From Euryarchaeota archaeon UBA130 (GTDB lineage: Archaea > Thermoplasmatota > Poseidoniia > Poseidoniales > Thalassarchaeaceae): a stretch of 64,000 nucleotides of DNA. Location: positions 101,614 to 165,613 of the forward strand of contig DAVY01000009.1 in NCBI GenBank assembly GCA_002505775.1, given 5' to 3'. The translations under genes were made by a program, and so were the position numbers. Under the pieces are notes generated by a model. The model made no database searches, was not told the DNA's origin, and was given only the letters and a program-made list of their open reading frames with translations. Shown piece by piece: positions 12,467 to 64,000 of this stretch (position 1 is the stretch's first letter; each line of letters begins with the position of its first letter).

Positions 12467-12931
12467 ATGATGAATGGCCCAACCGAAGGTATCACTGATA
12501 TCAGCTTCAAAGAAGATGTATTTAGAGAAGCAACTGCAACCGGCTTTCTTAGACTATCTCAAAAGAGTCTACGAGTTGTCTCAGACGGGAGATCAGTGAA
12601 GGGAGATGTTAGGGAGGCTTCAAACATAGCAGCTATTCTAGCAGTTAAAGAAACACCTAGAACTATTCCCCATTGCCATCCCATCCCAATAGAGGCTTGC
12701 TCAGTGCGATGGGACATTGAAGAATCTGGACTAAGATGCACTGTAACAGTTAGGACCCACTGGTCGACAGGGGTCGAAATGGAAGCCCTCTGTGGGGTGA
12801 GCGCCGCTCTCCTCTGTGCCTTTGATATGTTAAAATCAATAGAGAAAGATAACGAGGGACAGTATCACGATACGTCTATCGAAGGAATAAGGGTCATCGA
12901 GAAAAAGAAAGGCAACCGCACAGTTGAATGA
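12467..12931 (+). CDS. moaC: cyclic pyranopterin monophosphate synthase MoaC
   Basis: 154 aa. KGDVREASNIAAILAVKETPRTIPHCHPIPI and TGVEMEALCGVSAALL. Confidence 0.85.
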   Translation: MMNGPTEGITDISFKEDVFREATATGFLRLSQKSLRVVSDGRSVKGDVREASNIAAILAVKETPRTIPHCHPIPIEACSVRWDIEESGLRCTVTVRTHWSTGVEMEALCGVSAALLCAFDMLKSIEKDNEGQYHDTSIEGIRVIEKKKGNRTVE

Positions 12932-12953
12932 CTACCTTCTCCTCGGGATTAGC

Positions 12954-13907
12954 ATGGTGACAGCAGACTTCGTCGATTTTTTCTTGGAGGCCACAGAAGC
13001 CGCGGCTGTGGCCGCATCCCCCTGGAGGGGGAAAGGAGATGGCAAAGCGGCTGATGGAGCAGCAGTTGAAGCCATGAGAGCGGTTTTCGACAAAGTCCCA
13101 TTTGATGGCAGAGTTGCTATAGGAGAAGGAGAGAGAGACAATGCTCCAATGTTATGGATTGGGGAGCCACTAGGTTCCATGCAAGGTCATCCAAATGCAT
13201 CAAGAATAGATATCGCAGTAGATCCGTTGGAGTGCACAAATCATGTCGCAAAGGACCTCCCTAATGCCATGGCGGTTCTGGCAGCGGCTCCTCGCGGTTC
13301 CCTATTACATGCCCCCGATTGCTACATGAACAAAATTGCGGGCTCAAGTGATCTAGTTGGCCAGATTAACCTGGATGAGGAAACCTCGTACAACCTCGAA
13401 TCAGCCTGCATGGCTCTAGGGAAAAATCCTTCAGAACTCAACGTAGTGGTGATGGAAAGGCCTAGGCACAAAACACTAATCCGAGAGATTAGCCAATTCG
13501 GGGCAAACGTGATCCTGATAGGTGACGGCGATGTTTCCGCCGCACTCAATGCTGCAGACCCAGAGTCCGAAATTGATATGCTGATGGGAATCGGTGCAGC
13601 TCCCGAGGGAGTTATTACGGCTACTGCATTGAGGGGATTGGGAGGGGCTTTTCAAGGAAGACTCGTATTCAAAAATGAAGGCCATAGAGAAAGAGCCGAA
13701 AGAATGATCGATGATGACATTGAGAAGCTCTGGGAAAGAGACGAACTTTGTTCATCAGATGACTCCGTATTCATTGGATCAGGTGTGTGCGAAGGAAGGA
13801 CAAAGGGAGTTAAAATCAATGGTGATGGAACCGCTTCAGTTCATTCAGAAATAATAGATGTCGCCTCAGGTGAGCACAAATTTGTTTCGCGCACGAGAGA
13901 ATTTTAG
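12954..13907 (+). CDS. glpX: class II fructose-1,6-bisphosphatase (GlpX type)
   Basis: ATEAAAVAASPWRGKGDGKAADGAAVEAMR and AIGEGERDNAPMLWIGE match the GlpX N-terminal pattern. The ORF track starts at TTG 12924; I prefer ATG 12954, just after the moaC stop. Confidence 0.85.
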   Translation: MVTADFVDFFLEATEAAAVAASPWRGKGDGKAADGAAVEAMRAVFDKVPFDGRVAIGEGERDNAPMLWIGEPLGSMQGHPNASRIDIAVDPLECTNHVAKDLPNAMAVLAAAPRGSLLHAPDCYMNKIAGSSDLVGQINLDEETSYNLESACMALGKNPSELNVVVMERPRHKTLIREISQFGANVILIGDGDVSAALNAADPESEIDMLMGIGAAPEGVITATALRGLGGAFQGRLVFKNEGHRERAERMIDDDIEKLWERDELCSSDDSVFIGSGVCEGRTKGVKINGDGTASVHSEIIDVASGEHKFVSRTREF

Positions 13908-13969: not shown

Positions 13970-14986
13970 ATGGTCATGGATGTGGAACTTTTAGAGAGGA
14001 CAGCAGCAGAATTAGTAGCTTCGGGAAAGGGGGTCCTTGCTGCGGATGAGAGCAATGGAACTATGTCCAATAGACTGGCAGCCGTGGGCGTCGAACCATC
14101 TGCAGAAACTCGTCGTTCATACCGGTCAAACATATTTGCAACTCCCGGATATGAATCTGCAATTAGTGGGGTTATATTGTTCGACGAGACTATTCGCCAG
14201 AATATGGACGATGGGACCCCGATCCCCCAATACCTAGCTAGTAGGGGAATTTATCCTGGAATCAAAGTTGACACAGGCGCAAAGGAATTGGCAAACCATC
14301 CCGGTGAGAAAATAACTGAAGGACTAGACGGCCTAAGGGAGCGGTGTGCAGAATATTTCCAGATGGGCGCGCGCTTCGCAAAGTGGCGTGCCGTGATTCG
14401 TATAGGGAAAGGAATGCCATCACTGGCATGCCTGTCCACAAATTCCCATGCACTTGCAAGGTATGCTTCGATATGTCAAGAACAGGGGTTAGTGCCTATA
14501 ATCGAACCGGAAGTTTTGATGGATGGCGACCATGACGCCCAGAGTTGCTATGATGTGACAGCGTCTGTATTGAAGATGACTTGGGATGAATGCAAGAAGC
14601 AGGGAGTTCACCTCAAAGGTGTCCTCCTCAAACCAAATATGATTCTTCCAGGAAATTCATGTTCCGATCGAGGAAGCAGGAAAAAGGTCGCTAAGATGAC
14701 AGTTGACTGTTTGACTGAAAATGTCCCCAGCGAGGTTCCCGGAATTGTGTTCTTATCAGGGGGGCAATCAGATGAAGATGCCACAGCGCATCTCAATCTA
14801 ATGAATGCTATGGATATAGACCATCCATGGGAGCTATCTTATTCCTATGGGAGGGCACTTTTAGCCCACGCATTGCAGACATGGGCCCGAGGATCTAGTG
14901 AGGGTAGCCAAGATGCATTCAGACACAGAGCGGAGATGAACAGTCTGGCGAGAACAGGGGACTGGAGAGAGGAATTAGAAAGCTAG
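13970..14986 (+). CDS. fba: class I fructose-bisphosphate aldolase
   Basis: 338 aa. SGKGVLAADESNGTMSNRL, GIYPGIKVD, LKPNMI, FLSGGQS, LSYSYGRAL. Confidence 0.88.
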   Translation: MVMDVELLERTAAELVASGKGVLAADESNGTMSNRLAAVGVEPSAETRRSYRSNIFATPGYESAISGVILFDETIRQNMDDGTPIPQYLASRGIYPGIKVDTGAKELANHPGEKITEGLDGLRERCAEYFQMGARFAKWRAVIRIGKGMPSLACLSTNSHALARYASICQEQGLVPIIEPEVLMDGDHDAQSCYDVTASVLKMTWDECKKQGVHLKGVLLKPNMILPGNSCSDRGSRKKVAKMTVDCLTENVPSEVPGIVFLSGGQSDEDATAHLNLMNAMDIDHPWELSYSYGRALLAHALQTWARGSSEGSQDAFRHRAEMNSLARTGDWREELES

Positions 14987-15234
14987 TTATCTTCAAGCAC
15001 GCCTGGTCTTAGTTGCCAAACGCATATCTCATATCGTCCAGAGAGAGCACCTCCTCTCTTCGTTGTTGAAACCTTCATTATGTCCTTGTCTTTTGAGAGT
15101 ACGTTTCCGAGTTGTTGAGGAGTAGTCCCGTGTCTCATGGTGGTATTGACGTGCTCAAGGATTTCGGTGGTATTTGCCTCGCCTCTTGAATGTAGAAATT
15201 TCTTGATTTTTTGCCTTAGTCTTGTAGTTCTCAT
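14983..15234 (-). CDS. small hypothetical protein, putative winged-helix; paralog of the next gene
   Basis: 83 aa. KIKKFLHSRGEANTTEILEHV ... GGALSGRYEICVW aligns by eye with the 89-aa neighbour, at roughly 30 percent identity. Confidence 0.55.
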   Translation of the reverse strand: MRTTRLRQKIKKFLHSRGEANTTEILEHVNTTMRHGTTPQQLGNVLSKDKDIMKVSTTKRGGALSGRYEICVWQLRPGVLEDN

Positions 15235-15236
15235 AT

Positions 15237-15506
15237 TTACTCCTCCTTCATGGACAATCCCCGCTCATGATGAGCCACCCACTCGTCGGTAGCCCATTCC
15301 GACAGGGGGTATTCACGACCTGCTATGCCGCTTCTTCTCATGGTGCCTATTCTGATTATAGTCTCATCCGATTCAAGCAGTCCTGAAATATCGGTCTTGG
15401 AAGTCTGGATCTCTTTTTGCGCTTCTAGCCAGGAAACTATTTCTGCTGTATTTCTTGGCTTGCTGGCTACGAATTTCCTGATCAATTTTCGGATATTTTC
15501 CGACAT
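15237..15506 (-). CDS. small hypothetical protein, putative winged-helix; paralog of the previous gene
   Basis: 89 aa. LIRKFVASKPRNTAEIVSWL ... SGIAGREYPLSEW. Sits 2 nt upstream of its paralog. Confidence 0.55.
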   Translation of the reverse strand: MSENIRKLIRKFVASKPRNTAEIVSWLEAQKEIQTSKTDISGLLESDETIIRIGTMRRSGIAGREYPLSEWATDEWVAHHERGLSMKEE

Positions 15507-15767
15507 TATCTATCTCTCCATCTCGTGTCTGCAGGTCCCCGTCTCTTACCCGATATGCACAGGATGGCAGGCACTGATATAACCGTTCTGTAGGATTTAA
15601 CTAACTTTAGTTACTTAACATCACACAAATAGCCCCAATTTTTGCTACAGAATTAAGTGTCGAAATGAAACCACGTACTTCTCCAATAGAAATGTGTAAT
15701 TATATGTAACTAAATAGATTAATTTAATACAAATATCTTATGTGGATTAATTAAGTGGTGGTAATTC
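15507..15767. promoter_or_regulatory. AT-rich divergent intergenic region with a 9-nt inverted repeat (candidate operator/promoter region)
   Basis: Lies between divergent genes. TTTAGTTAC at 15606-15614 and its exact reverse complement GTAACTAAA at 15706-15714. Several ATTAAT/TTAATT runs. GGTGGTG lies 7 nt before the ATG at 15768. One hand-counted 60-nt line (15661-15720) is 17/60 GC. Confidence 0.5.
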
Positions 15768-18383
15768 ATGCCGGATGTTGACAATAATCTGAATATTCAG
15801 TATCCTCCATCGCGTCCAATCAAGATTAGAAGTAGGAACAAGAGAAGGATCCTAAGATACCTAGCAGAGAGGAGCTCAACAGTCAGTGAAGTAGCCATCG
15901 CAACTGGAATCAGGGTCCCTCATGCATCAGCAGAGATTAGGAGGTTGAGAAATGATACACTGCTAGACAGTGACATGCCCTCAGGAAGCAGAGGTGGGAG
16001 ACTGCATCTGACAGAAAATGGCTGGGGAGTATTGAAATCAGACGAACTCGCAATGGCGTCAGAAGCGAAAACGATCTCTATGGAAGAGAGGGGATATTGC
16101 ATACTTTTTCGAGATGGACCTAATCTTCTCCTGGGATTAACCGGATCGCCAGACTCACCATTGTTGCCCATTCCCGACAGGCCCCCGGAGAAACTCGGAG
16201 GTGAAGAATTCTCCAGTGGAACTAAGGGGGTTCCATGGAGTTGGGCTGTGTTCACAGAGAGGTCTCCAAGATGGGTAGATCTTTCTACTAATGAATTCAA
16301 ATCAGCACCACCGGTGTATGATAGGGAGAAAATCGAGACTTTCTCTGAAAGTAAATCCATTATTGGGATAATTAGAGCGAGACTTCTGGATGAGGAAAGG
16401 CCGATAGCGATCGCACCGGGCGAATGGTTTTCCGCGCCAGATCACAGACCAAAACCCCCACTTCCAGAAGAATCCATGCACAGAGGTAATTGGACTCTCG
16501 CAAAATGTCATGAAATGTCACCAGATATCAGGCCATCGTCGACTATTGTGGCAGTTGTGTCGGAAAAGCTACCCAGAACCATGCTTTTGAAAGCTGCAAA
16601 GAGCGGATCTTTGATCATCGCCGACTTAACCGGATTTGAATCAAACAGTGATAAACTCCCTTTAGAATCTCTCGATCATTGGATTTCAATAGCTCATCCT
16701 AGACTATCTGAGGCAGAGAGAAATAGAAGATGCCAAGCTCTGAAGGATAGAATATCCGGGACCAGAAGGGCGAGAACCGAAGACTCCACATGGAGGAGAT
16801 TTAGACAGGATTGGGGAAACTCTGAATTCTCATCATCCTCAAATCATCCGAGACTACTGGATACGAGAAGTTTAGGGAAAGCAGCTTCAGAATCACTCAC
16901 TAGATGGGCTCTATCTAATGATGAAAACCCTCCATTGGTAATTGACGTACCAGACAACATTTCAAACGATTTAGCGAATTCTATTTCTTCAAATCCAAAT
17001 GTTAGAATGGTACTGACAAAGAGAAATTTGGAGCCGTTCTCAGGGATGGACAGTGTACGGATTGATCATCTCAGGCCTCTCCCATGGATGGTACTTTCAA
17101 CTAAAGGGGGCAGGGAGGTGCCAATCAGAATTGTTGATCCAATCCTCCATTCTCCTGACACACATCAGATACCACTATCGAAGGAAAAAGATAGCCATAT
17201 TACCAATGAGCTAAAGGCTCTGGCAAGCTCAATTGATGACAAAGAGTATCAATCAATGGTGAGGTCCGCAATCTCTCAATATCCTGAGGGAAATGAAGAT
17301 TGGGCCAACAGGATGGAAGCGAGATATCCAGTAGCAGCCTGGATAGCGTCACCTCCCCGTTCCAGATGGCCAAGGTGGCAGAGGCTAAGCTCTAGGTTAA
17401 ATCCAGAATGGCTAATAATCCTTGATTTTGATCACCTTCCTTTGGAGGGTCTTTCTGAGGTAGCGGATGTTGCACCACAGTCAGTATTGGAGGTTTTTTC
17501 AGTGGAGTTCACACGTCTGCTAAGAACAGATCAAAATACCGCACTCAAATCTAGACCCACTATAGATCCTAGAAATGCTACTCGTGGGTCATCATGGGTT
17601 GCATCCCAGTTATTGGCAAACTCTGCTTGGCTTCCTGAGTCATTTCATGATGATCTGATTGAATGGTCCTTGGGAGTGTGGCTTGCCCATCCTCCAATCA
17701 AATCAATAAACACTATACAGGGACTTGTGTGGCTCTTCTCTTCTAGTGAGAGAGTTTCAGAGGATAAAGAGATTTCAATATTGAAAAAGATACTTTCCAA
17801 AGCCTCACAGTTGCCTCTTGACCACGATATGAGGTCTTGGGCCATTCTAGATAGGGTAACTCCGAAAAATATAGATCCTTCATTTGAAGAAATAAAGCTA
17901 ATTCTAACCAATTTACCCCTAGAGTGGTGGGCGCATATCTCCTCGGATTTACTGGAGGCAATGTTACAAGATGACAAAGCTTTCACATGGCTTGTAAGTA
18001 AGAGTATATCATGGCCGGCAGCCGTTCTCAGACCTGTGGGGTTTGAAAGTAAATTCCCTTTTCATCGTTCGTTAAACTACGAGGGATGTAGTTCCAAAAT
18101 CAGGGGATTACTATCTAGAAGGATAAGAGGTAAGGAAGATTTTTCATCAGAGGCCGAACCACTTTTTGATTTACTGGAGGCACTCGATGCACTTAATGAG
18201 AACAGGCCTCCAAAAATGGGGAATACTCATTCATTGGTAGGATGGTTAGCACAGCCCGCTGAGAGATGGCCAGAATTCAGTGTCAAAGAAATCTCAGAAG
18301 GGGATACCTATGTTATGGAAAGTCTGTTGCTAAAAAGAACCGGTTTCCATCAAGATCTGATTTCAAAAGGTACTTTTGACTAG
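15768..18383 (+). CDS. large orphan protein with N-terminal ArsR/TrmB-like winged-helix domain
   Basis: 871 aa. Residues ~25-90, RRILRYLAERSSTVSEVAIATGIRVPHASAEIRRLRNDTLLDS...GGRLHLTENG, look like a wHTH. The remaining ~780 aa are Trp/Ser/Pro-rich with no P-loop, nuclease, methylase or other motif I recognise. Confidence 0.7.
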   Translation: MPDVDNNLNIQYPPSRPIKIRSRNKRRILRYLAERSSTVSEVAIATGIRVPHASAEIRRLRNDTLLDSDMPSGSRGGRLHLTENGWGVLKSDELAMASEAKTISMEERGYCILFRDGPNLLLGLTGSPDSPLLPIPDRPPEKLGGEEFSSGTKGVPWSWAVFTERSPRWVDLSTNEFKSAPPVYDREKIETFSESKSIIGIIRARLLDEERPIAIAPGEWFSAPDHRPKPPLPEESMHRGNWTLAKCHEMSPDIRPSSTIVAVVSEKLPRTMLLKAAKSGSLIIADLTGFESNSDKLPLESLDHWISIAHPRLSEAERNRRCQALKDRISGTRRARTEDSTWRRFRQDWGNSEFSSSSNHPRLLDTRSLGKAASESLTRWALSNDENPPLVIDVPDNISNDLANSISSNPNVRMVLTKRNLEPFSGMDSVRIDHLRPLPWMVLSTKGGREVPIRIVDPILHSPDTHQIPLSKEKDSHITNELKALASSIDDKEYQSMVRSAISQYPEGNEDWANRMEARYPVAAWIASPPRSRWPRWQRLSSRLNPEWLIILDFDHLPLEGLSEVADVAPQSVLEVFSVEFTRLLRTDQNTALKSRPTIDPRNATRGSSWVASQLLANSAWLPESFHDDLIEWSLGVWLAHPPIKSINTIQGLVWLFSSSERVSEDKEISILKKILSKASQLPLDHDMRSWAILDRVTPKNIDPSFEEIKLILTNLPLEWWAHISSDLLEAMLQDDKAFTWLVSKSISWPAAVLRPVGFESKFPFHRSLNYEGCSSKIRGLLSRRIRGKEDFSSEAEPLFDLLEALDALNENRPPKMGNTHSLVGWLAQPAERWPEFSVKEISEGDTYVMESLLLKRTGFHQDLISKGTFD

Positions 18384-18413
18384 CCAAAATGGACCGAGGG
18401 GTTCATTTCCCAT

Positions 18414-18708
18414 CAGGTGTGCCCGGGACTGCCCAGCGGCAACACCCTGTTGACAAAACCCCCTCGCCGGAGGTTGAGAATGAAACATGGTACCACGTAT
18501 GGGTAGCCATCTGTCGAAGACCAGTAGGATCATCATCGATGAAATGAATACTGGCGCAAATCAGGTGGCCGGACCATGTTAGGTCCCCTGAGGACCCGTA
18601 GGGGATGAATCAAGGGACTACCCCATGGTCCGACAGACGTCCCGGGGTGGGTCAGGCGCTCGAGCCAAGCTGTGAAGGTCGCCGTTACGCCCCGGGGCAC
18701 ACATTTTT
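18414..18708 (+). ncRNA. candidate structured non-coding RNA (~290 nt), identity unknown
   Basis: No credible ORF. Two hand-counted 60-nt lines are 40/60 GC, against 21-26/60 in the upstream gene. Ends pair: GTGTGCCCGGG 18417-18427 with CCCCGGGGCACAC 18690-18702, followed by TTTTT at 18704-18708. Internal helices: CGGACCATG 18570-18578 with CATGGTCCG 18624-18632; CCCGGGAC 18422-18429 with GTCCCGGG 18639-18646; CCAGTA 18521-18526 with TACTGG 18549-18554; hairpin GGTCC-CCTGA-GGACC 18582-18596. Strand was chosen from the T-run and gene orientation. Confidence 0.45.
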
Positions 18709-18740
18709 CCAAAGCCCTCAATACTTCTCACTTCTACAGA

Positions 18741-19790
18741 ATGGTGATGAAAGCCCTTGGCCTGTTGGGCGGAACCTTTGATAGATTCCATAAAGGGCAT
18801 AGAAAATTATTGGAAACTGGGCTCAGCGAGTGCCAGAATCTGGAAATTTGGATGACCTCTGACAATTTAGCTAAGAGTAAGGACCCCCGAATCGATTCTT
18901 GGGATGACAGAAAGGAACTGATTGTCAACTCATTGGTTGGAGATGTCCGAGAAAGGATATCATTTCACGTTCTAGAGGATCTCTATGGCCCAGCAACTAT
19001 CAGGGAAGATGTCCAAGCAATTGTCTGCACACCTGAAACTGTGGACAACTGCAAGAAAATCAACTCTCTCCGTTTGGAGAACTCCTTGGCGCCATTGCAT
19101 ATCGTCATCGCCGAACATGAGTTGGATTGGATGGGTAGGCCAATTTCCAGCACCAATATTAGGAGGGGAATAATGGACAGGGAAGGATATCCCTGGCTAC
19201 ATGAGGAAATAGGATTATTTGATCTAATTCTGAACCAAGATGTTGAATTATCCTTGAAGACACCATTCGGGCAACTCGTTGAGGGAGACGAGGATGATCC
19301 CAAATTGGCTATGAGAGAGGTGTTAAGTAGAATTTCCGACTCTACTGGGCCAATAATTGCGGTTGGCGATGTAACTGTGAAGACCCTTCAAGATCTGGGA
19401 CGTTCAGCTGACATCGCGCTAATTGACGGAATGACCAAGCGTCAGAAGTGGAACGGGTCCTCAGAAATTGATGAGAGGCTCTTTGACTCCGTCCTCAGAT
19501 GCTCCAACCCACCAGGCCAGATAACCCCGGACCTGTACAGATGTTGCATTGAGGCAATCTCCAAGTTTGGATACGGTAGAGGTGAAGATAAATCTCAATC
19601 CACATTGATAGTCATTGATGGTGAAGAAGATCTGGCCCCGCTCATAATCCACCCTTTGACTTCGCTTGGTTCAGTGATTCTGTATGGTCAGCCTGGAAAG
19701 GGAGTGGTCATCAGATATACTGATCTCGATGCAAAAACTAGGTGTAGGAACCTATTGGAATCGATGGATGGAGACTGGTCACAAAGGTAG
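18741..19790 (+). CDS. fused phosphopantetheine adenylyltransferase (archaeal PPAT) and GTP-dependent dephospho-CoA kinase (DUF359)
   Basis: N-terminal half has the nucleotidyltransferase motif GGTFDRFHKGH. C-terminal half has AVGDVTVKTL, IDGMTKRQ, IDGEEDLAPL and ILYGQPGKGVVI, which I recognise as DUF359/archaeal DPCK. The ORF track starts at 18672; I prefer ATG 18741 (MVMKALGLLGG). Confidence 0.8.
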   Translation: MVMKALGLLGGTFDRFHKGHRKLLETGLSECQNLEIWMTSDNLAKSKDPRIDSWDDRKELIVNSLVGDVRERISFHVLEDLYGPATIREDVQAIVCTPETVDNCKKINSLRLENSLAPLHIVIAEHELDWMGRPISSTNIRRGIMDREGYPWLHEEIGLFDLILNQDVELSLKTPFGQLVEGDEDDPKLAMREVLSRISDSTGPIIAVGDVTVKTLQDLGRSADIALIDGMTKRQKWNGSSEIDERLFDSVLRCSNPPGQITPDLYRCCIEAISKFGYGRGEDKSQSTLIVIDGEEDLAPLIIHPLTSLGSVILYGQPGKGVVIRYTDLDAKTRCRNLLESMDGDWSQR

Positions 19791-19854: not shown

Positions 19855-20370
19855 CTAATTTTCTGCTTCTTCGAGAAGTCCTATTCCAACTCCGAAAGAA
19901 ACTAGGACTGCAAACACCGAGTAGACTCCGGGATCCACCCATGTATTCTCCATAGCACTCCAAAGGACATAGAATAGCACTCCTATTGCTACTAACCAAC
20001 TAGAGACCATTTTTGTCGCTCCTCTGTCAGAAGATAGGAGGCTCTCTGAGATGCAACTTGGGAGCCCAGTCAGCCAGCCGACAAAGCCTGAATCATGGAT
20101 TTTATTCAGGCCCCTTGCCCCGAGCCCGATTAGAAGCAATCCAACAAGTCCGAATAAAGCATCATCCATCACAAATGCCATTTCAGTGGTGGAAGGGTCC
20201 CTGGTCCCACTGAAGAAATCTATCCAAAGTACCTTTTTCCCCTCTGAATAAGCGCCTATGAAAAGGTTAACTATTGTTAGGAAAACTACCCACGATCCCA
20301 ACAAGGCCAAGGCCGCCGACAAGGTCTTACTCGGACGCATCAAGGAACTCATCCACTCTGATTCACTCAT
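19855..20370 (-). CDS. hypothetical integral membrane protein
   Basis: 171 aa with 4-5 hydrophobic helices. No family recognised. Confidence 0.5.
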   Translation of the reverse strand: MSESEWMSSLMRPSKTLSAALALLGSWVVFLTIVNLFIGAYSEGKKVLWIDFFSGTRDPSTTEMAFVMDDALFGLVGLLLIGLGARGLNKIHDSGFVGWLTGLPSCISESLLSSDRGATKMVSSWLVAIGVLFYVLWSAMENTWVDPGVYSVFAVLVSFGVGIGLLEEAEN

Positions 20371-20429: not shown

Positions 20430-21668
20430 TCATAATCTGCTTTGGAGAGCATATTTCTCCTCAGATGCCTGGGCCACCAAGGCTTCAGAATCACTCAAGG
20501 TTGAGATTACATCAATCCCTCTGGGGACAGCGGAATTCACTTGTTTACTTCTACCTCCTCTTCCCTTGCTAACATTTCTGGCCATTATCAGCCCAAGGGT
20601 GTCCAGCTCATTCAGTAGAGAAGATATCCTCCTTGCAGTCAGAGGTTCGACTGAAATTTTCAAACAGGCATCTGAGTAAGTCCTGAATACTTCTCCCGTG
20701 CTGATATTTCTTAGGCCATTCTCCTCATTGAGTTTGATGGTAAATAAAACCAGTTTTTGGTGCAAAGGAAGGGTCCTCAAGACAGGAGTGACCTGATCGT
20801 ATTCTAATTGGCTCTGGGCCAATCTTACATGAGGAGGAGAGACCGACTCATGTCCCTCCTGCTCAGCCTTTTGGACGGAGATCCTGAGAAGATCCAAGGC
20901 CCTTCTAGCATCACCGTGTTCAGATGCTGCCAATGCCGAACATAGCTCTATTACGCCATTTCCGATAGAATCCTGTCGCAAACCTGTCTTGGCCCTATCT
21001 TCTAGAATATCCTGAATCTGAGCGGCCCCGTATGGATGGAATACTAGGTCCTCCTGGCTCAGCCTAGAGCTGACTCTCGGGTCTAGGTGTTGAGTAAAGT
21101 GTAGATCATTACTGATGCCAATTATGCAACACCTTGAAGACTTTAGAACGGTATTGAGATTTGTAAGATTGTAAAGGATACCGTCTCCAGCCCTTGCCAC
21201 AAGATTATCAATCTCATCAAGAACGATGATATGGACGCCTCCTTCCCTGTCCATTCTTGTAACCAGGGTGTCCAGAACTCTGTCTGTTGGCCATCCAGTA
21301 AATGGGATAGGGGCATCTCCCCTGTGGGATAGTTGCGAGGCGATATTTTGTACTACCCTGTACTTAGTGTCTATATTCCTACAATTTATCTCGTAGCTGA
21401 AAACTGGCTCACCCATTTCCTTCCCTTTGTCAAGAAGCTGTGAGAGTACATATCTAGTGACTACAGTTTTTCCTGAACCAGGAACTCCGTAGAGTAGCAT
21501 ATTCGAAGGGATATGACCGTTCAATGCGTCAACAAGATTCCTAACCAGCGCGTCGACCTCTCCTCCTCTGTGAGGGAGTTTATCAGGCTCGAAGGCGTGA
21601 TCGAAAGCCCTCCTATCAATAAACAAGCTCTCCTGTCCAAGAATCTTTTCGAAAATGTTTCTCTCCAT
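20430..21668 (-). CDS. cdc6: Orc1/Cdc6 replication initiator
   Basis: 412 aa. Walker A YGVPGSGKT, Walker B IIVLDEIDNL, sensor region, and a C-terminal winged helix. Faces an AT-rich intergenic region. Confidence 0.9.
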   Translation of the reverse strand: MERNIFEKILGQESLFIDRRAFDHAFEPDKLPHRGGEVDALVRNLVDALNGHIPSNMLLYGVPGSGKTVVTRYVLSQLLDKGKEMGEPVFSYEINCRNIDTKYRVVQNIASQLSHRGDAPIPFTGWPTDRVLDTLVTRMDREGGVHIIVLDEIDNLVARAGDGILYNLTNLNTVLKSSRCCIIGISNDLHFTQHLDPRVSSRLSQEDLVFHPYGAAQIQDILEDRAKTGLRQDSIGNGVIELCSALAASEHGDARRALDLLRISVQKAEQEGHESVSPPHVRLAQSQLEYDQVTPVLRTLPLHQKLVLFTIKLNEENGLRNISTGEVFRTYSDACLKISVEPLTARRISSLLNELDTLGLIMARNVSKGRGGRSKQVNSAVPRGIDVISTLSDSEALVAQASEEKYALQSRL

Positions 21669-22057
21669 TTTCTAACACTCCTTGCACATGTCGTCGAACT
21701 ACTCTCCTACTCCCCATCTGAGTGGTTGAATAGCCAACGCGGATTGACAGCGAACAAGCTCCAGATAATAAGCCTCTCTGAAGAATCAGTAACTCAAGTA
21801 AGTTTACAACAGTAAATTGCATTCAAGTTTACTTTCTACATCAGTAATTTTTTTTGTCCTGTAAACAACTTTCAGTATCTCGTTTTTACATTTTTTTATC
21901 TGGTGCAAATATCTCACTGTAAAAGAAAATATCCATCAACATAATATGATAAAATAGTCAATCATGGAGTATGAATGATATTCAATTTTTTTAACTCGAA
22001 TGATCTAGAATGTTATATCATCCGAATTATTTTGACGAGATGAGGTATATATGCATG
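21669..22057. other. candidate replication origin (AT-rich unwinding region plus short repeats) upstream of cdc6
   Basis: 389-bp non-coding stretch. T-runs at about 21847-21856, 21890-21898, 21984-21992 and 22057-22080. AAGTTTAC at 21800-21807 and 21825-21832, with inverted GTAAAC at 21861-21866. TCAGTAA at 21786-21792 and 21841-21847, plus CAGTAA at 21810-21815 and TCAGTA at 21872-21877. Confidence 0.55.
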
Positions 22058-22897
22058 TTATTTTTTTGATTTTTTATTTATAATTTGAAATGACCCGTCA
22101 TCAAATATTTGAAGCGCGTCAAAATCTTCAAGCTGGTAAATTTTCTCTGGCAACGCGGGCATCTGGAAACCCTCTTGACGACCCCTCGCAGAAGAGTAGT
22201 TGTGAGTCACGAGAATTTTCGCATGGGGATTCCTTTCTGAGAGTTTGACCACATCCGAGGGACGGTGATGATGAGGAAAATCCCCAATATCAGGAACCCC
22301 CATCTCCACTATGATAACGTCGGCATCCGGGGCTCTCCGATCTATCTCCGAACATGGCCCGGAATCCCCACAATGAAGGATACTAAATCCGCTGGAATGT
22401 ATAAGCTCGTATCCATGAGGGTCAGTTTCTGGATTGTGATTGACAGGGAATCTAATGAACCTCCAACCTGTATCTCCAATGAGCCCATTTTCCTCTTCAT
22501 TCCAATCAACCATCGAGTCCAGCGAATCCAAACTCCCGGGGAAGCCCGTTTCACACAAACCATGAAGGATTTTTCTCCCACCTGGACGAAGATAGACATC
22601 CAGCCCCACCTTCGAGTCTCTATTAGTCACGTATTTCCTTTCCAGAAGGAAAAAGGGGAATCCGAAAATGTGATCCCCGTGCCAGTGAGTGAACAACAGA
22701 TGACGAATGTCTCCACTCGAATGCCCCGTTCTCTTTAGCTGAGTGATAACTGTCGGAGGGGCGTCAATTAGGATTTTGCCATCGATCAGGGCCAGTGCAT
22801 GCATCCTCCCATGTGGGGAGAAGGCATTGCCAGTTCCCAGGAAATCAACTCTCGGCATGGGCCTGCGAAAGAGACCAATGACTTGACCCCATCGCAA
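22058..22897 (-). CDS. metallo-beta-lactamase fold hydrolase
   Basis: 279 aa. FLGTGNAF and the HxHxDH box FTHWHGDHIFG. The real start may be M14 at 22858. Confidence 0.75.
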   Translation of the reverse strand: MRWGQVIGLFRRPMPRVDFLGTGNAFSPHGRMHALALIDGKILIDAPPTVITQLKRTGHSSGDIRHLLFTHWHGDHIFGFPFFLLERKYVTNRDSKVGLDVYLRPGGRKILHGLCETGFPGSLDSLDSMVDWNEEENGLIGDTGWRFIRFPVNHNPETDPHGYELIHSSGFSILHCGDSGPCSEIDRRAPDADVIIVEMGVPDIGDFPHHHRPSDVVKLSERNPHAKILVTHNYSSARGRQEGFQMPALPEKIYQLEDFDALQIFDDGSFQIINKKSKK

Positions 22898-62948: not shown

Positions 62949-63103
62949 GCCGGGGTGGCGTAGTTGGTAGCGCGTCGGACTCATAGGGTAACTTTCTGCG
63001 GGGGGCTCAGCCCCTCTGGAGCTAGTCGATGAGCGCAACAGCCTAACTGAAGATTGTCTGAGACATCCGAAGGTCGCGGGTTCAAGTCCCGCTCCCGGCA
63101 CCA
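62949..63103 (+). tRNA. tRNA-Met (anticodon CAT; elongator type, or Ile2) with a 79-nt intron at 37/38, CCA encoded
   Basis: Hand-folded. Acceptor GCCGGGG/TCCCGGC. D arm GCGT-AGTTGGTA-GCGC. Anticodon stem TCGGA (62975-62979) / TCCGA (63066-63070), with loop C-T-CAT-A then the intron at 62986-63064. T arm GCGGG-TTCAAGT-CCCGC. The G1-C72 pair argues against an initiator. Bulge-helix-bulge: helix CTCA 62980-62983 / TGAG 63059-63062, flanked by 3-nt bulges. Confidence 0.85.
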
Positions 63104-63178: not shown

Positions 63179-64000
63179 ATGACGCTGAGTTCACTCAATT
63201 GGGTTAGTCGGTTTACCGACCAGACCCCAGGTGATGCCGAGAAAGGAGGCACATCGAGGCAGGTGCCCGGGGCCTGCTGGTCAAGGGTTGACCCCACTCC
63301 CGTCCCAGAGCCCGTTCTCAGGCTGTGGTCCAGGGAGATGGCTGTGGAGCTTGGAATAGAGGCCGGGGAAGGCGACGTACTGGGCGGAAGCAGCTTGATC
63401 AAGGGAATGGACCCCTATGCGCAGAGGTACGGTGGCCACCAATTCGGAAATTGGGCGGGCCAGCTTGGTGATGGAAGGGCAATAACCCTGGGCGAGGCCG
63501 AAACGGGTGAGGGGGTGCTGGAGCTACAGCTGAAGGGCTCCGGAATAACCCCCTACTCGAGATTCGCAGATGGCAAGGCAGTCCTACGCTCCTCAATCAG
63601 GGAGTTCCTCTGCAGTGAGGCGATGTTCCACCTCGGGGTCCCGACCACGCGAGCGCTCTCCCTGGTCACAACGGGCGAGGATGTCATCCGGGACGTGATG
63701 TACGACGGAAGACCCGCTCCAGAAACGGGCGCGGTGGTATGCAGGGTGGCCCAGAGCTTCCTGCGCTTCGGGAGCTTCCAGATACACGCCATGACAGGGG
63801 ACTTCGAGACACTCAGGAAACTCGTCGACTTCACGGTAAGACATCACTTCCCGGGCCACAGGACCGACAGCGACGAGGCCCTGCTGGAATGGCTCAAGCA
63901 GGTCGCTGACGAGACCGCTCGGATGATCGCCCATTGGATGAGGGTGGGATTCGTGCATGGCGTCATGAACACGGACAATATGTCAATTCACGGGCTGACC
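63179..64000 (+). CDS. selO: protein adenylyltransferase SelO (YdiU/UPF0061); C-terminal part runs off the right edge
   Basis: Not in the ORF track (no stop in window). Hand translation from ATG 63179: [85 protein letters not shown]. Confidence 0.88.

What the first reader, a model, noticed from the sequence alone, without database searches (positions are those of the whole stretch)
14983..18740. Top candidate: low-GC module of three wHTH proteins, an 871-aa orphan, and an adjoining GC-rich structured RNA
Seen in sequence:
1. Two tandem paralogous ~85-aa ORFs on the minus strand.
2. A 261-bp AT-rich divergent spacer with an exact 9-nt inverted repeat whose starts are 100 bp apart.
3. An 871-aa ORF with only an N-terminal wHTH recognisable.
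4. About 30 nt after its stop, on the same strand, roughly 290 nt of non-coding sequence with paired ends, several internal helices and a terminal T-run.

Hand counts of single 60-nt lines give 21-26 GC inside the orphan (lines 16081, 16501, 17001, 17761, 18181). The flanking fba line 14401 gives 29 and the CoA gene gives 33-34 (lines 19081, 19501). The RNA segment gives 40 (lines 18421, 18601).

Inference: this is a horizontally acquired or fast-evolving island between housekeeping genes, self-regulated by small wHTH proteins. A large protein with a structured RNA encoded at its 3' flank recalls RNA-guided or RNA-scaffolded systems. However, I see no nuclease, ATPase or RT motif, so any function is speculative.
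Basis: partly seen in the sequence, partly recalled or inferred. Interest (0 to 1): 0.7.

Follow-up and report, generated by a model that had tools for sequence, protein, structure and literature searches.

The report
H/ACA guide RNA beside lineage-specific genes
The 'structured RNA' is a four-hairpin box H/ACA guide RNA of the kind that directs pseudouridine formation in ribosomal RNA, and the genes beside it are a vertically inherited set of proteins specific to Marine Group II archaea, so this is neither a foreign island nor an RNA-guided system.

Summary
All four observed features are real, but the interpretation mostly fails.

**Not an island.** The window comes from a Poseidoniales (Marine Group II) archaeon. 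The order fbp, fba, DUF3860 (one or two copies), 871-aa gene, RNA, PPAT/DPCK, membrane protein, cdc6 recurs in 80 species-representative genomes. The core block DUF3860, large gene, RNA, PPAT survives in relatives only 22-31% identical. The GC contrast is small: 44.6% against a window mean of 48.5%.

**The RNA (18393-18708, 58.5% GC).** It forms four tandem hairpins with strong covariation. Each has a lower stem, a pocket, a 6-bp upper stem and a K-turn signature. The last three match HgcG/Pab40 (Rfam E 6e-9, below the gathering score) and share its guide sequences. Hairpin 3 is complementary to the 23S helix-69 loop and hairpin 1 to a site near the peptidyl-transferase centre. A fourth 5' hairpin, and the lack of ACA boxes after hairpins 0 and 1, are new variations.

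**The 871-aa "orphan".** It has more than 200 homologues. It combines an ArsR-like winged helix, a HerA-like barrel plus RecA-like fold without a Walker A motif, and a helical domain.

**The small ORFs and spacer.** Both small ORFs belong to Pfam DUF3860 (PDB 2od5). The 261-bp spacer is a conserved control region with GTAAC sites.

The function of the protein module remains unknown.

The parts
14983..15234 (-). DUF3860_A: an 83-aa basic protein (pI 10.2), nearly invariant across the family.
   Evidence: It is an ORF matching Pfam PF12976 at E 6e-38 and PDB 2od5 at E 3e-29. It is 88-100% identical in 80 loci.
15237..15506 (-). DUF3860_B: an 89-aa diverged paralogue (pI 6.1), absent from about 12 of the 80 loci.
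   Evidence: It matches Pfam PF12976 at E 4e-22. It is 45-92% identical across loci and missing in, for example, L041, L044, L067 and L073. Lineages with one copy carry an intermediate form.
15507..15767 (.). A 261-bp divergent control region (35% GC). TATA-like blocks lie at 15575-15583 (for the minus strand) and 15720-15730 (for the plus strand). A GGTGGT Shine-Dalgarno-like run precedes the ATG.
   Evidence: Its length is 241-270 bp in 77 of 78 loci (one 325 bp). Conserved blocks appear in a 26-sequence alignment. Reading the blocks as promoters is inference.
15606..15614 (.). Left arm TTTAGTTAC of the exact 9-nt inverted repeat (a GTAAC site on the minus strand).
   Evidence: Found. A TAGTTAC match sits at about spacer position 101 in 41 of 78 loci.
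15695..15714 (.). Tandem TGTAAT-N4-TGTAAC, including the right arm GTAACTAAA (15706-15714), just upstream of the plus-strand TATA-like block.
   Evidence: The pattern is unique in the window (0.01 expected). A GTAACTA match sits at about spacer position 199 in 46 of 78 loci.
15768..18383 (+). 871-aa protein. Residues about 20-98 form an ArsR/MarR-like winged helix. Residues about 100-455 form a HerA-like beta-barrel plus RecA-like domain with no Walker A. Residues about 480-865 are all-helical. The most conserved motif is W-I-x-x-A-H-P-R-L (aa 305-313).
   Evidence: Homologues. AlphaFold2 gave pLDDT 85.5 for the full protein and 83.5, pTM 0.79, for aa 100-478. Foldseek matched HerA 4d2i_B at E 1.8e-8, TM 0.52/0.45, and MarR/SmtB for the N-terminus. 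None of 44 members has a Walker A.
18393..18430 (+). RNA 5' leader: the conserved ACCGAGGGGTTC(A/T)TGA followed by a variable hairpin.
   Evidence: Seen in alignment A2. Its role is unknown.
18431..18504 (+). Hairpin H0, an extra H/ACA-type hairpin. Lower stem GCCCA/TGGGT, pocket strands GCGGCAACA and TACCACGTA, upper stem 18445-18450/18485-18490, K-turn signature TTGAC...GAATGAA. It has no ACA box and no target was found.
   Evidence: The upper stem has 3 covarying pairs. One lower-stem pair switches A:U to G:C in 32 of 32 distinct sequences. Folded alone, it adopts this structure.
18506..18569 (+). Hairpin H1, matching Pab40 motif 1. Guide strands TCGAAGA (18514-18520) and CGCAAAT (18555-18561). 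No ACA box follows.
   Evidence: Rfam alignment. Eight pairs in the lower and upper stems show compensatory changes (11 with the apical stem). It pairs 6+6 bp with guuugc[U]acuucgaugucgg in an archaeal 23S. Folding z-score -3.5.
18570..18635 (+). Hairpin H2, matching Pab40 motif 2, with an ACA box at 18633-18635, 14 nt after the upper stem. The pocket is irregular and the target is unresolved.
   Evidence: Rfam alignment. The lower stem has 4 covarying pairs. Folding z-score -3.6.
18639..18701 (+). Hairpin H3, matching Pab40 motif 3. Guide strands TGGGTCA (18648-18654) and GTTACG (18684-18689). ACA box at 18699-18701, 15 nt after the upper stem.
   Evidence: Rfam alignment. Covariation. It pairs 5+6 bp with gguaac[U]cugacccuc, the helix-69 loop, in an archaeal 23S. 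The target of Pab40 motif 3 is helix 69 (PMC2377435).
18704..18708 (+). TTTTT run, a probable archaeal terminator.
   Evidence: Seen in the sequence. It is present in many but not all homologues. The terminator reading is inference.

Best explanation
Two conserved, vertically inherited core features of Poseidoniales genomes lie side by side here.

(A) The GC-rich RNA at 18393-18708 is a four-hairpin box H/ACA guide sRNA.
- Each hairpin would bind L7Ae at its K-turn and a Cbf5-Nop10-Gar1 set at its lower stem (inferred from family knowledge).
- Each pocket would pair with rRNA on both sides of a uridine, which is then converted to pseudouridine.
- Hairpins H1-H3 are the counterpart of Pab40/Pf7/Afu4/HgcG.
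- H3 targets the helix-69 loop uridine of 23S rRNA (E. coli U1915, P. abyssi U2016).
- H1 targets the uridine near the peptidyl-transferase centre that matches P. abyssi U2588.
- The targets of H2 and H0 are unresolved.
- The RNA starts 10 nt after the stop codon of the upstream gene. It is probably made by read-through, or from a promoter inside that gene's 3' end, and then trimmed (inferred).

(B) The DUF3860 gene or genes and the 871-aa gene form a clade-specific divergent pair.
- They are driven from a fixed-geometry 260-bp control region with three GTAAC sites. One of the encoded DNA-binding proteins most likely binds these sites (inferred).
- The 871-aa protein joins a winged helix to a HerA-like barrel plus RecA-like fold that has lost the P-loop, and then to a helical domain. 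It is most likely a DNA-binding, possibly ring-forming, non-ATPase protein (inferred).

Nothing ties (A) to (B) functionally beyond adjacency and possible co-transcription.
For: RNA:
- Rfam HgcG/Pab40 hits at E 6e-9 (window) and 1.2e-7 (L018, model positions 58-268), with similar guide sequences in all three hairpins.
- The RNA was found after the large gene in every locus with enough sequence and in distant loci L202, L203 and L205.
- In the four-hairpin structure 94.5% of cells are paired, against 33-46% in slid controls. There are 25 pairs and 228 cells with compensatory changes, and 0 of 500 shuffles reach this.
- A lower-stem pair of H0 covaries in 32 of 32 distinct sequences.
- All four hairpins share one geometry: a 6-bp upper stem, 1 nt, then GA...TGA. 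This agrees with the 5-6 nt rule in PMC7991803.
- ACA lies 14 nt (H2) and 15 nt (H3) below the upper stem, within the 14-16 nt rule.
- The best H3 match in an independent archaeal 23S is the helix-69 loop. The H1 match lies 569 nt downstream of it, against 572 nt between Pab40's two targets.

Not an island:
- Identical gene order in 80 species-representative genomes.
- The core block is kept at 22-31% identity.
- The GC difference is only about 4 points.

Protein:
-.

Control region:
-.
Against: - The Rfam scores (38 and 33 bits) are far below HgcG's gathering score of 77 bits. No HgcG hit was obtained in the most distant locus.
- H0 and H1 lack the ACA/ANA box that the family normally needs. 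H0 has no target and folds weakly (z = -0.8).
- The rRNA used for the target test is from a Methanophagales MAG, not from Marine Group II. It was retrieved with a pattern partly derived from the H1 guide, so the H1 match is partly circular. The H3 score alone is reached by 76 of 500 shuffles.
- No expression data were available.
- The block large gene, RNA, PPAT survives rearrangements on both sides. That could mean a functional link.
- The role of the protein module is inferred only from folds and motifs.
Confidence: 0.78

Rival explanations
1. RNA-protein system. The 871-aa protein binds, assembles or uses the adjacent structured RNA, for example as a dedicated chaperone for a four-hairpin H/ACA particle whose inner hairpins lack ACA boxes, or as an RNA-scaffolded complex.
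For: - Adjacency is universal and on the same strand. The RNA starts 0-60 nt from the stop codon.
- The block survives rearrangement of both flanks in lineages where the protein is only 22-31% identical.
- The ACA-less hairpins might need an extra factor.
Against: - The RNA has the complete anatomy of a housekeeping H/ACA guide.
- The only recognisable nucleic-acid-binding module of the protein is a DNA-type ArsR/MarR winged helix.
- HerA relatives act on DNA.
- PPAT/DPCK and DUF3860 are just as tightly linked, so synteny or co-transcription suffices to explain the adjacency.
Confidence: 0.07
2. A horizontally acquired island or an anti-phage defence module built on a HerA-like protein.
For: - The GC content is slightly low, in the lowest 5% of windows of equal size.
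- Foldseek hits include HerA subunits of anti-phage complexes: 8xav_A at E 3e-4 and 9c1m_M.
Against: - The module is in the same place in every genome examined, and its divergence tracks that of its neighbours.
- There is no Walker A in any of 44 members.
- There is no Sir2, nuclease or other effector partner, and no mobility genes, among the neighbours.
- PADLOC gave no meaningful hit.
Confidence: 0.03
3. The RNA is not a guide RNA but a cis-regulatory leader of the downstream PPAT/DPCK gene, or another housekeeping RNA such as SRP or RNase P RNA.
For: - It ends 35-40 nt before the PPAT start codon (18744).
- It is always upstream of that gene.
Against: - No Rfam family other than H/ACA families matched, even at E <= 10.
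- It is built of four independent hairpins with K-turn signatures and ACA boxes.
- In this sequence an ACA plus T-run separates it from the PPAT gene.
Confidence: 0.04

Closest known systems
Pab40 / Pf7 / Afu4 / HgcG (Rfam RF00064), the three-hairpin archaeal box H/ACA sRNA
   Same: - Three tandem hairpins in the same order, with similar guide sequences.
- K-turn signatures above the pockets.
- ACA boxes after the last two hairpins.
- The predicted target of the third hairpin is the helix-69 uridine. The first hairpin targets a site about 570 nt downstream, as shown experimentally for Pab40 (PMC2377435).
   Different: - An additional conserved 5' hairpin (H0) plus a leader make it a four-hairpin RNA of about 313 nt. 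A review states that archaeal H/ACA sRNAs have one, rarely two or three, hairpins (PMC7991803).
- H0 and H1 have no ACA/ANA box.
- It scores only 33-38 bits against the 77-bit gathering threshold.
HerA (FtsK/HerA-superfamily hexameric DNA translocase, e.g. Sulfolobus HerA, PDB 4d2i)
   Same: The fold of residues 100-478, an N-terminal beta-barrel followed by a RecA-like alpha/beta domain. Foldseek gave E 1.8e-8, TM 0.52/0.45. The full-length model also hits HerA-NurA.
   Different: - No sequence-level similarity.
- No Walker A in any of 44 members.
- It is fused to an N-terminal winged helix and a C-terminal helical domain of about 390 aa.
- No NurA, Mre11 or Rad50 genes among the neighbours identified in the related loci.
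- Oligomeric state is unknown.
ArsR/SmtB and MarR winged-helix regulators expressed from divergent, self-controlled promoters
   Same: - The N-terminal domain of the 871-aa protein matches ArsR/NmtR profiles (E 4e-4) and MarR/SmtB structures.
- The divergent spacer carries inverted and tandem copies of one short motif.
   Different: - The regulator-like domain is a small part of an 871-aa protein.
- No metal-binding or ligand site was identified.
- Which protein binds the GTAAC sites is unknown.
Pfam DUF3860 / PDB 2od5 (a JCSG structure of a novel Global Ocean Sampling family)
   Same: Both small ORFs are members. 2od5 corresponds to the single-copy form seen in L202 and L205.
   Different: No function has been assigned to the family. 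Here the gene is duplicated, with one copy nearly invariant and one diverged.

Membership tests
Archaeal box H/ACA guide sRNA | Hairpin made of a lower stem, an internal loop (the pseudouridylation pocket) and an upper stem. | tested here: met
   Four hairpins. 94.5% of cells are paired against 33-46% in slid controls, with 25 compensatory pairs. The H0 lower stem is supported. Each hairpin folds this way on its own.
Archaeal box H/ACA guide sRNA | K-turn or K-loop 5-6 nt above the pocket (PMC7991803). | tested here: met
   All four hairpins have a 6-bp upper stem, then 1 nt, then GA on the 5' strand and nnTGA on the 3' strand. This is a sequence pattern only. L7Ae binding was not tested.
Archaeal box H/ACA guide sRNA | ACA (ANA) box 14-16 nt downstream of the top of the pocket: hairpins H2 and H3. 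| tested here: met
   ACA at 18633-18635 (14 nt) and 18699-18701 (15 nt), invariant in alignment A2.
Archaeal box H/ACA guide sRNA | ACA (ANA) box 14-16 nt downstream of the top of the pocket: hairpins H0 and H1. | tested here: not met
   After 15 nt the next hairpin's stem begins (GCC, CGG). No conserved A-N-A is present in 43 sequences.
Archaeal box H/ACA guide sRNA | Two-part complementarity of the pocket to rRNA on both sides of an unpaired U-N. | tested here: inconclusive
   H1 pairs 6+6 bp and H3 5+6 bp at the sites expected from Pab40, in a 23S rRNA. That rRNA is from Methanophagales, not Marine Group II, and it was retrieved with a pattern partly derived from H1. H0 gave none and H2 is ambiguous. 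E. coli rRNA gave nothing useful.
Archaeal box H/ACA guide sRNA | Assembly with L7Ae, Cbf5, Nop10 and Gar1, and formation of pseudouridine. | not testable with these tools
   Needs biochemistry or pseudouridine mapping.
Rfam RF00064 HgcG (Pab40) | Covariance-model score at or above the gathering threshold of 77 bits. | tested here: not met
   38.1 bits (E 6e-9) in the window and 33 bits (E 1.2e-7) in L018. No hit at gathering thresholds.
HerA/FtsK-type ATPase | HAS-barrel plus RecA-like fold. | tested here: met
   Foldseek of the aa 100-478 model hit 4d2i_B at E 1.8e-8, TM 0.52/0.45, and also 8xav_A and 9c1m_M.
HerA/FtsK-type ATPase | Walker A P-loop (GxxxxGK[ST]) and a catalytic Walker B. | tested here: not met
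   None of 44 members has a Walker A. The equivalent loop reads VVSEKLPRT (consensus AVxSERLPRS). Only a hhhhD-like LIIAD strand remains.
HerA/FtsK-type ATPase | Sequence-profile membership (Pfam, NCBIfam or PDB profiles). | tested here: not met
   Only HTH matches were found.
ArsR/MarR winged-helix DNA-binding domain (N-terminus of the 871-aa protein) | Profile or fold match to the winged helix-turn-helix. | tested here: met
   HTH_5 scored 16.4 bits, below the cut-off of 22. The family profile hit NmtR and ArsR at E 4e-4 to 7e-4. Foldseek matched ZitR, SmtB and MarR with probability 1.0 and target-normalised TM 0.4-0.76.
Pfam DUF3860 (PF12976) | Score above the curated cut-off of 27 bits. 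| tested here: met
   129.1 and 78.5 bits. PDB 2od5 matched at E 3e-29.
   A profile search against the PDB found only 2od5. hhalign against the large protein's HTH gave E 0.17, probability 0.4.
Genomic island / horizontally acquired module | Patchy distribution, atypical composition, mobility genes or integration scars. | tested here: not met
   The module sits at the same locus in all 80 species-representative genomes plus 3 distant loci. GC is 44.6% against 48.5%. No integrase or transposase lies among the neighbours.
HerA-based anti-phage defence systems | An active HerA ATPase with an adjacent effector (Sir2, a nuclease or similar), and matches to PADLOC models. | tested here: not met
   PADLOC gave only a spurious HTH-region hit at E 0.025. 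The neighbours are DUF3860, the RNA and PPAT. There is no Walker A.

The most novel reading that the evidence does not exclude
The DUF3860 proteins and the 871-aa winged-helix, HerA-like, P-loop-less protein form a chromosome-organising or replication-associated DNA-binding system specific to Poseidoniales and encoded about 3.3 kb from cdc6/oriC. In this reading the nearly invariant basic DUF3860_A acts as an abundant nucleoid protein and the large protein as a ring-forming DNA clamp or scaffold. A more radical variant is that the large protein is a dedicated assembly factor for the co-transcribed four-hairpin H/ACA particle, whose two inner hairpins lack ACA boxes.
Probability: 0.15. Interest if true: 0.65.

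Novelty: new variant of a known kind. Interest (0 to 1): 0.4.

Why it matters
Marine Group II archaea are the most abundant planktonic archaea of the surface ocean (PMC6461757 abstract) and are uncultivated.

**The RNA.**
- This result gives them a first annotated H/ACA guide RNA.
- The RNA carries four hairpins, more than the one to three described for archaea.
- Two of the hairpins lack the ACA box thought necessary for Cbf5 docking. That offers a natural test of how strict the requirement is in multi-hairpin particles.

**The proteins.**
- The result removes a false 'orphan island' label.
- It shows that a large conserved clade-specific protein has a HerA-like fold without a P-loop, fused to a winged helix.
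- It pairs this protein with DUF3860, a solved structure with no known function, whose main copy is almost invariant.
- It identifies a conserved operator-like region. Together these give concrete handles for biochemical work on an uncultured lineage.

None of this overturns current understanding.

Tried and rejected
- **Rfam at gathering thresholds.** Nothing was found in the region. One multi-locus Rfam call failed, and a 54-kb E-value search lost the weak hits to the filters.
- **'Paired ends' helix (18417-18428 with 18690-18702).** It is present in this sequence but not conserved, so it was rejected.
- **GGGG (18398-18401) pairing with CCC (18432-18434).** Rejected because some lineages lose the GGGG while keeping the CCC, and the CCC covaries with the downstream GGG.
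- **E. coli 16S and 23S as a target proxy.** No meaningful matches.
- **First metagenome scan, for CGTAAC-T-N-TGACCC.** Zero hits, because the real helix-69 stem reads GGUAAC.
- **Second metagenome scan.** Most hits were protein-coding DNA and about 12 were rRNA. The best two belong to Methanophagales, not Marine Group II.
- **H2 match of 7+8 bp at one 23S site.** Judged to be chance: about 0.08 expected by my rough estimate, three G-U pairs, and the guide positions vary between species.
- **H0 target.** Only a 3+6 bp match in a different archaeon's H93 region, and the uridine is absent at that site in L165.
- **Apparent 280-nt insertion in the RNA of L006.** It is a run of N.
- **Independent promoter for the RNA.** No conserved TATA box was found upstream.
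- **PADLOC, NCBIfam and PDB-profile searches of the large protein.** Only the HTH was found.
- **DUF3860 against winged-helix profiles.** Not significant.
- **Literature on DUF3860 and 2od5.** No functional information.


Full report
**Origin and layout.** The window comes from a Marine Group II archaeon (order Poseidoniales). The closest loci are MAGs named Euryarchaeota archaeon UBA28 (94% protein identity) and Candidatus Poseidoniales archaeon (90%). Features in the region:

| Coordinates | Strand | Feature |
|---|---|---|
| 12924-13907 | + | fbp |
| 13970-14986 | + | class-I fructose-bisphosphate aldolase |
| 14983-15234 | - | small ORF, 83 aa |
| 15237-15506 | - | small ORF, 89 aa |
| 15507-15767 | . 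| 261-bp spacer |
| 15768-18383 | + | 871-aa ORF |
| about 18384-18743 | . | gap with no convincing ORF |
| 18744-19790 | + | fused PPAT/DUF359 (dephospho-CoA kinase) gene; true start probably 18744 |
| 19855-20370 | - | membrane protein |
| 20430-21668 | - | cdc6/orc1 |

**Check of the observation.**
- *Small ORFs.* Both are Pfam DUF3860 (129 and 78 bits). The first matches PDB 2od5 at E 3e-29.
- *Inverted repeat.* The exact 9-nt repeat is there, with starts 100 bp apart. The 9-mer occurs nowhere else in 64 kb.
- *Large ORF.* By sequence only a weak ArsR-type HTH is recognisable.
- *GC content.* The GC-rich segment is real: 58.5%, in the top 2% of 313-nt windows. The 'low-GC module' is not striking. 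The 871-aa gene is 44.6%, the window mean is 48.5%, the neighbours are 46-49%, and the CoA gene is 46.3% rather than about 55%.

**Not an orphan and not an island.**
- The 871-aa protein has 214 homologues among 90%-identity clusters. The 120 best that were listed are mostly 869-881 aa long (two are shorter, 700 and 726 aa) and go down to 45% identity. The few that carry a source name are called Marine Group II, Thalassarchaeaceae or Thermoplasmatota.
- An exhaustive profile search of 1.84 billion representatives found only 190 proteins. The full-length ones are 800-910 aa and none shows another architecture.
- A scan of one genome per GTDB species returned 80 loci. In every locus with enough flanking sequence the order is fbp, fba, DUF3860_A, optionally DUF3860_B, large gene, a gap of about 350-460 nt, PPAT/DPCK, membrane protein, cdc6.
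- Identity to the window falls in parallel for all genes:

| Gene | Identity to the window in the more distant loci |
|---|---|
| Large gene | 40-50% |
| PPAT | 45-55% |
| fba | 73-80% |
| cdc6 | 76-80% |
| DUF3860_A | 88-100% |

- This is vertical inheritance of a core neighbourhood.
- Three relatives whose large protein is only 22-31% identical still show DUF3860 (minus strand), large gene (plus strand), gap, PPAT. In L202 the flanks have changed: a DeoC-type aldolase lies upstream, and in all three a glycosyltransferase is inserted downstream.

**The RNA is conserved and structured.**
- A search with 18384-18715 finds the segment directly after the large gene in every locus that has the sequence (112-335 bits), and in distant loci L203 and L202. 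It is visible by eye in the GC-rich L205.
- A 43-sequence alignment shows invariant single-stranded stretches alternating with covarying stems. RNAalifold predicts 60 pairs, 24 of them with compensatory changes.
- For my four-hairpin structure, 94.5% of cells are paired against 33-46% when partners are slid. There are 25 pairs and 228 cells with double changes, and 0 of 500 shuffles reach the observed covariation.

**The RNA is a box H/ACA guide.**
- With permissive thresholds the only meaningful Rfam match is HgcG/Pab40, the three-hairpin archaeal H/ACA sRNA. It scores 38.1 bits (E 6e-9) over 18452-18706. The last hairpin also weakly matches Pab160.
- The match recurs in a homologue that differs substantially in sequence: L018, 33 bits, E 1.2e-7, model positions 58-268, which are exactly the three hairpins.
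- These scores are below the gathering score of 77 bits, so by Rfam's rule the RNA is not a family member.
- The Rfam alignment shows similar pocket sequences in all three hairpins. These hairpins are H1 18506-18569, H2 18570-18632 and H3 18639-18698.
- Features checked against those listed in a review (PMC7991803):
  - A K-turn or K-loop 5-6 nt above the pocket. All hairpins have a 6-bp upper stem, one nucleotide, GA on the 5' strand and nnTGA on the 3' strand.
  - An ACA box 14-16 nt below the top of the pocket. ACA follows H2 after 14 nt and H3 after 15 nt.
- A T5 run follows the last ACA.

**A fourth hairpin and missing ACA boxes.**
- The conserved 5' part (18431-18504, H0) has the same anatomy.
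  - Its short lower stem GCCCA/TGGGT has an inner pair that switches between A:U (19) and G:C (13) in all 32 distinct sequences.
  - Its pocket strands are GCGGCAACA and TACCACGTA.
  - Its 6-bp upper stem covaries, and it has the same K-turn signature.
- In both H0 and H1, 15 nt separate the upper stem from the end of the lower stem. The next hairpin begins where the ACA should be, and no ANA is conserved there.
- The review states that archaeal H/ACA sRNAs have one, rarely two or three, hairpins and that the box is needed for function. A four-hairpin RNA with two box-less inner hairpins is therefore a variant. It is not a new kind of RNA.

**Targets.**
- Muller et al. (PMC2377435) showed that Pab40 motif 1 guides pseudouridine at 23S position 2588 and motif 3 at position 2016. 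The latter is one of the highly conserved pseudouridines of helix 69.
- No Marine Group II rRNA was available to me, and E. coli rRNA was uninformative.
- A metagenome scan yielded archaeal 23S genes. In two of them (L141, L165):
  - the best H3 match is gguaac[U]cugacccuc in the helix-69 loop (5+6 bp);
  - the best H1 match is guuugc[U]acuucgaugucgg (6+6 bp), 569 nt downstream.
- The corresponding Pab40 targets are 572 nt apart.
- Caveats:
  - These rRNAs belong to a Methanophagales MAG.
  - The scan pattern was partly derived from the H1 guide.
  - The H3 score alone is reached by 76 of 500 shuffles. Its force comes from landing on the known site.
- H2, whose Pyrococcus counterpart is also structurally ambiguous, and H0 have no convincing target.

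**The 871-aa protein.**
- AlphaFold2 with a 44-sequence alignment gave a confident model (pLDDT 85.5). Its parts are:
  - a winged helix at residues about 20-98;
  - beta-rich and alpha/beta domains at about 100-455;
  - a disordered linker;
  - an all-helical domain at about 480-865.
- Foldseek of the whole model hit HerA-NurA (E 7.5e-4) and F1-ATPase subunits weakly. It hit MarR, ArsR and SmtB for the N-terminus.
- A separate model of residues 100-478 (pLDDT 83.5, pTM 0.79) hit Sulfolobus HerA 4d2i_B at E 1.8e-8 (TM 0.52/0.45). HerA subunits of two other complexes followed: 8xav_A, an anti-phage defence complex, and 9c1m_M, a HerA-DUF assembly.
- No member of the family has a Walker A motif. 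The loop where it should be reads VVSEKLPRT. The best conserved motif is W-I-x-x-A-H-P-R-L.
- Sequence profiles see only the HTH.
- I therefore read it as a DNA-binding protein with a HerA-like fold that cannot bind nucleotide in the usual way. Its oligomeric state and role are unknown.

**DUF3860 and the control region.**
- DUF3860_A is basic (pI 10.2) and almost invariant. DUF3860_B is acidic to neutral and diverged. About a dozen lineages lack B. Distant single-copy lineages carry an intermediate form identical in type to PDB 2od5. 2od5 was solved as one of five novel ocean-metagenome families and has no assigned function.
- The spacer keeps its length (241-270 bp in 77 of 78 loci; L041 has 325 bp) and several blocks:
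  - TGATATAAC, TATA-like for the minus strand;
  - the TTAGTTAC site;
  - GGTG..GAAATGAAAC;
  - tandem TGTAAT-N4-TGTAAC directly upstream of a TAATTTAATAC block about 40 nt before the ATG.
- The tandem motif is unique in the window.
- This looks like an operator arrangement for one of the encoded DNA-binding proteins. That is inference.

**Is the RNA linked to the proteins?**
- For a link: the adjacency is universal, the RNA starts 0-60 nt from the stop codon, and I found no conserved independent promoter. Co-transcription is therefore likely.
- Against: PPAT and DUF3860 are equally linked, and the RNA needs no further explanation. I give the RNA-protein-system reading about 7%.

**Verdict.** The finding combines an ordinary class of housekeeping RNA, in an unusual four-hairpin and partly ACA-less form, with a conserved clade-specific gene pair of unknown function. 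It is worth annotating and is modestly interesting. It is not a new RNA-guided system or an island.

Noticed in passing
window 21700-22150: A very AT-rich stretch (GC 0.27-0.33) lies directly upstream of cdc6/orc1 and carries the inverted repeat GCTCCAGATAATAA / TTTTTATCTGGTGC (21758-21771 / 21893-21906). It is probably the replication origin with ORB-like repeats, about 3.3 kb from the 3' end of the 871-aa gene.
   Followed up: partly
window 63200-63650: This is the highest-GC stretch of the window (0.63). It has no Rfam match even at permissive thresholds and only short ORFs were listed. It could be a gene running off the window end or another structured RNA.
   Followed up: partly
window 62949-63100: A tRNA gene with an 81-nt intron in the anticodon loop, which fits an archaeal origin.
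   Followed up: no
window 14983-15234 and loci L001-L080: DUF3860_A is 88-100% identical across all Thalassarchaeaceae-type loci, where Cdc6 is only 76-80% identical and the large neighbouring protein 40-50%. It is also basic (pI 10.2). Such constraint on an 83-aa protein of unknown function suggests an abundant core role.
   Followed up: partly
window 14983-14986: On opposite strands, the stop-codon ends of the aldolase ORF (ends 14986) and DUF3860_A (ends 14983) overlap by 4 nt. DUF3860_A and DUF3860_B are separated by only 2 nt. The packing is very tight.
   Followed up: no
L202 9889-11013, L203 10182-11336, L205 10241-11401: In the distant lineages a family-2 glycosyltransferase gene is inserted between PPAT/DPCK and the membrane-protein side of the block (cdc6 itself is called only in L202 and L205). 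A metallo-beta-lactamase-fold gene (Pfam Anti-Pycsar_Apyc1/Lactamase_B) follows further along.
   Followed up: no
L006 6878-7157: An apparent 280-nt insertion inside the RNA gene of this MAG is a run of N, either a scaffold gap or masking. It is not a mobile element.
   Followed up: yes
window 18672-18743: The mechanical ORF list extends the PPAT/DPCK gene back to a GTG at 18672, overlapping hairpin H3 of the RNA. Homologue alignments start at the ATG at 18744. In L203 the public gene call (443 aa) likewise runs over the RNA. Automatic annotation therefore probably hides this RNA in many MAGs.
   Followed up: partly
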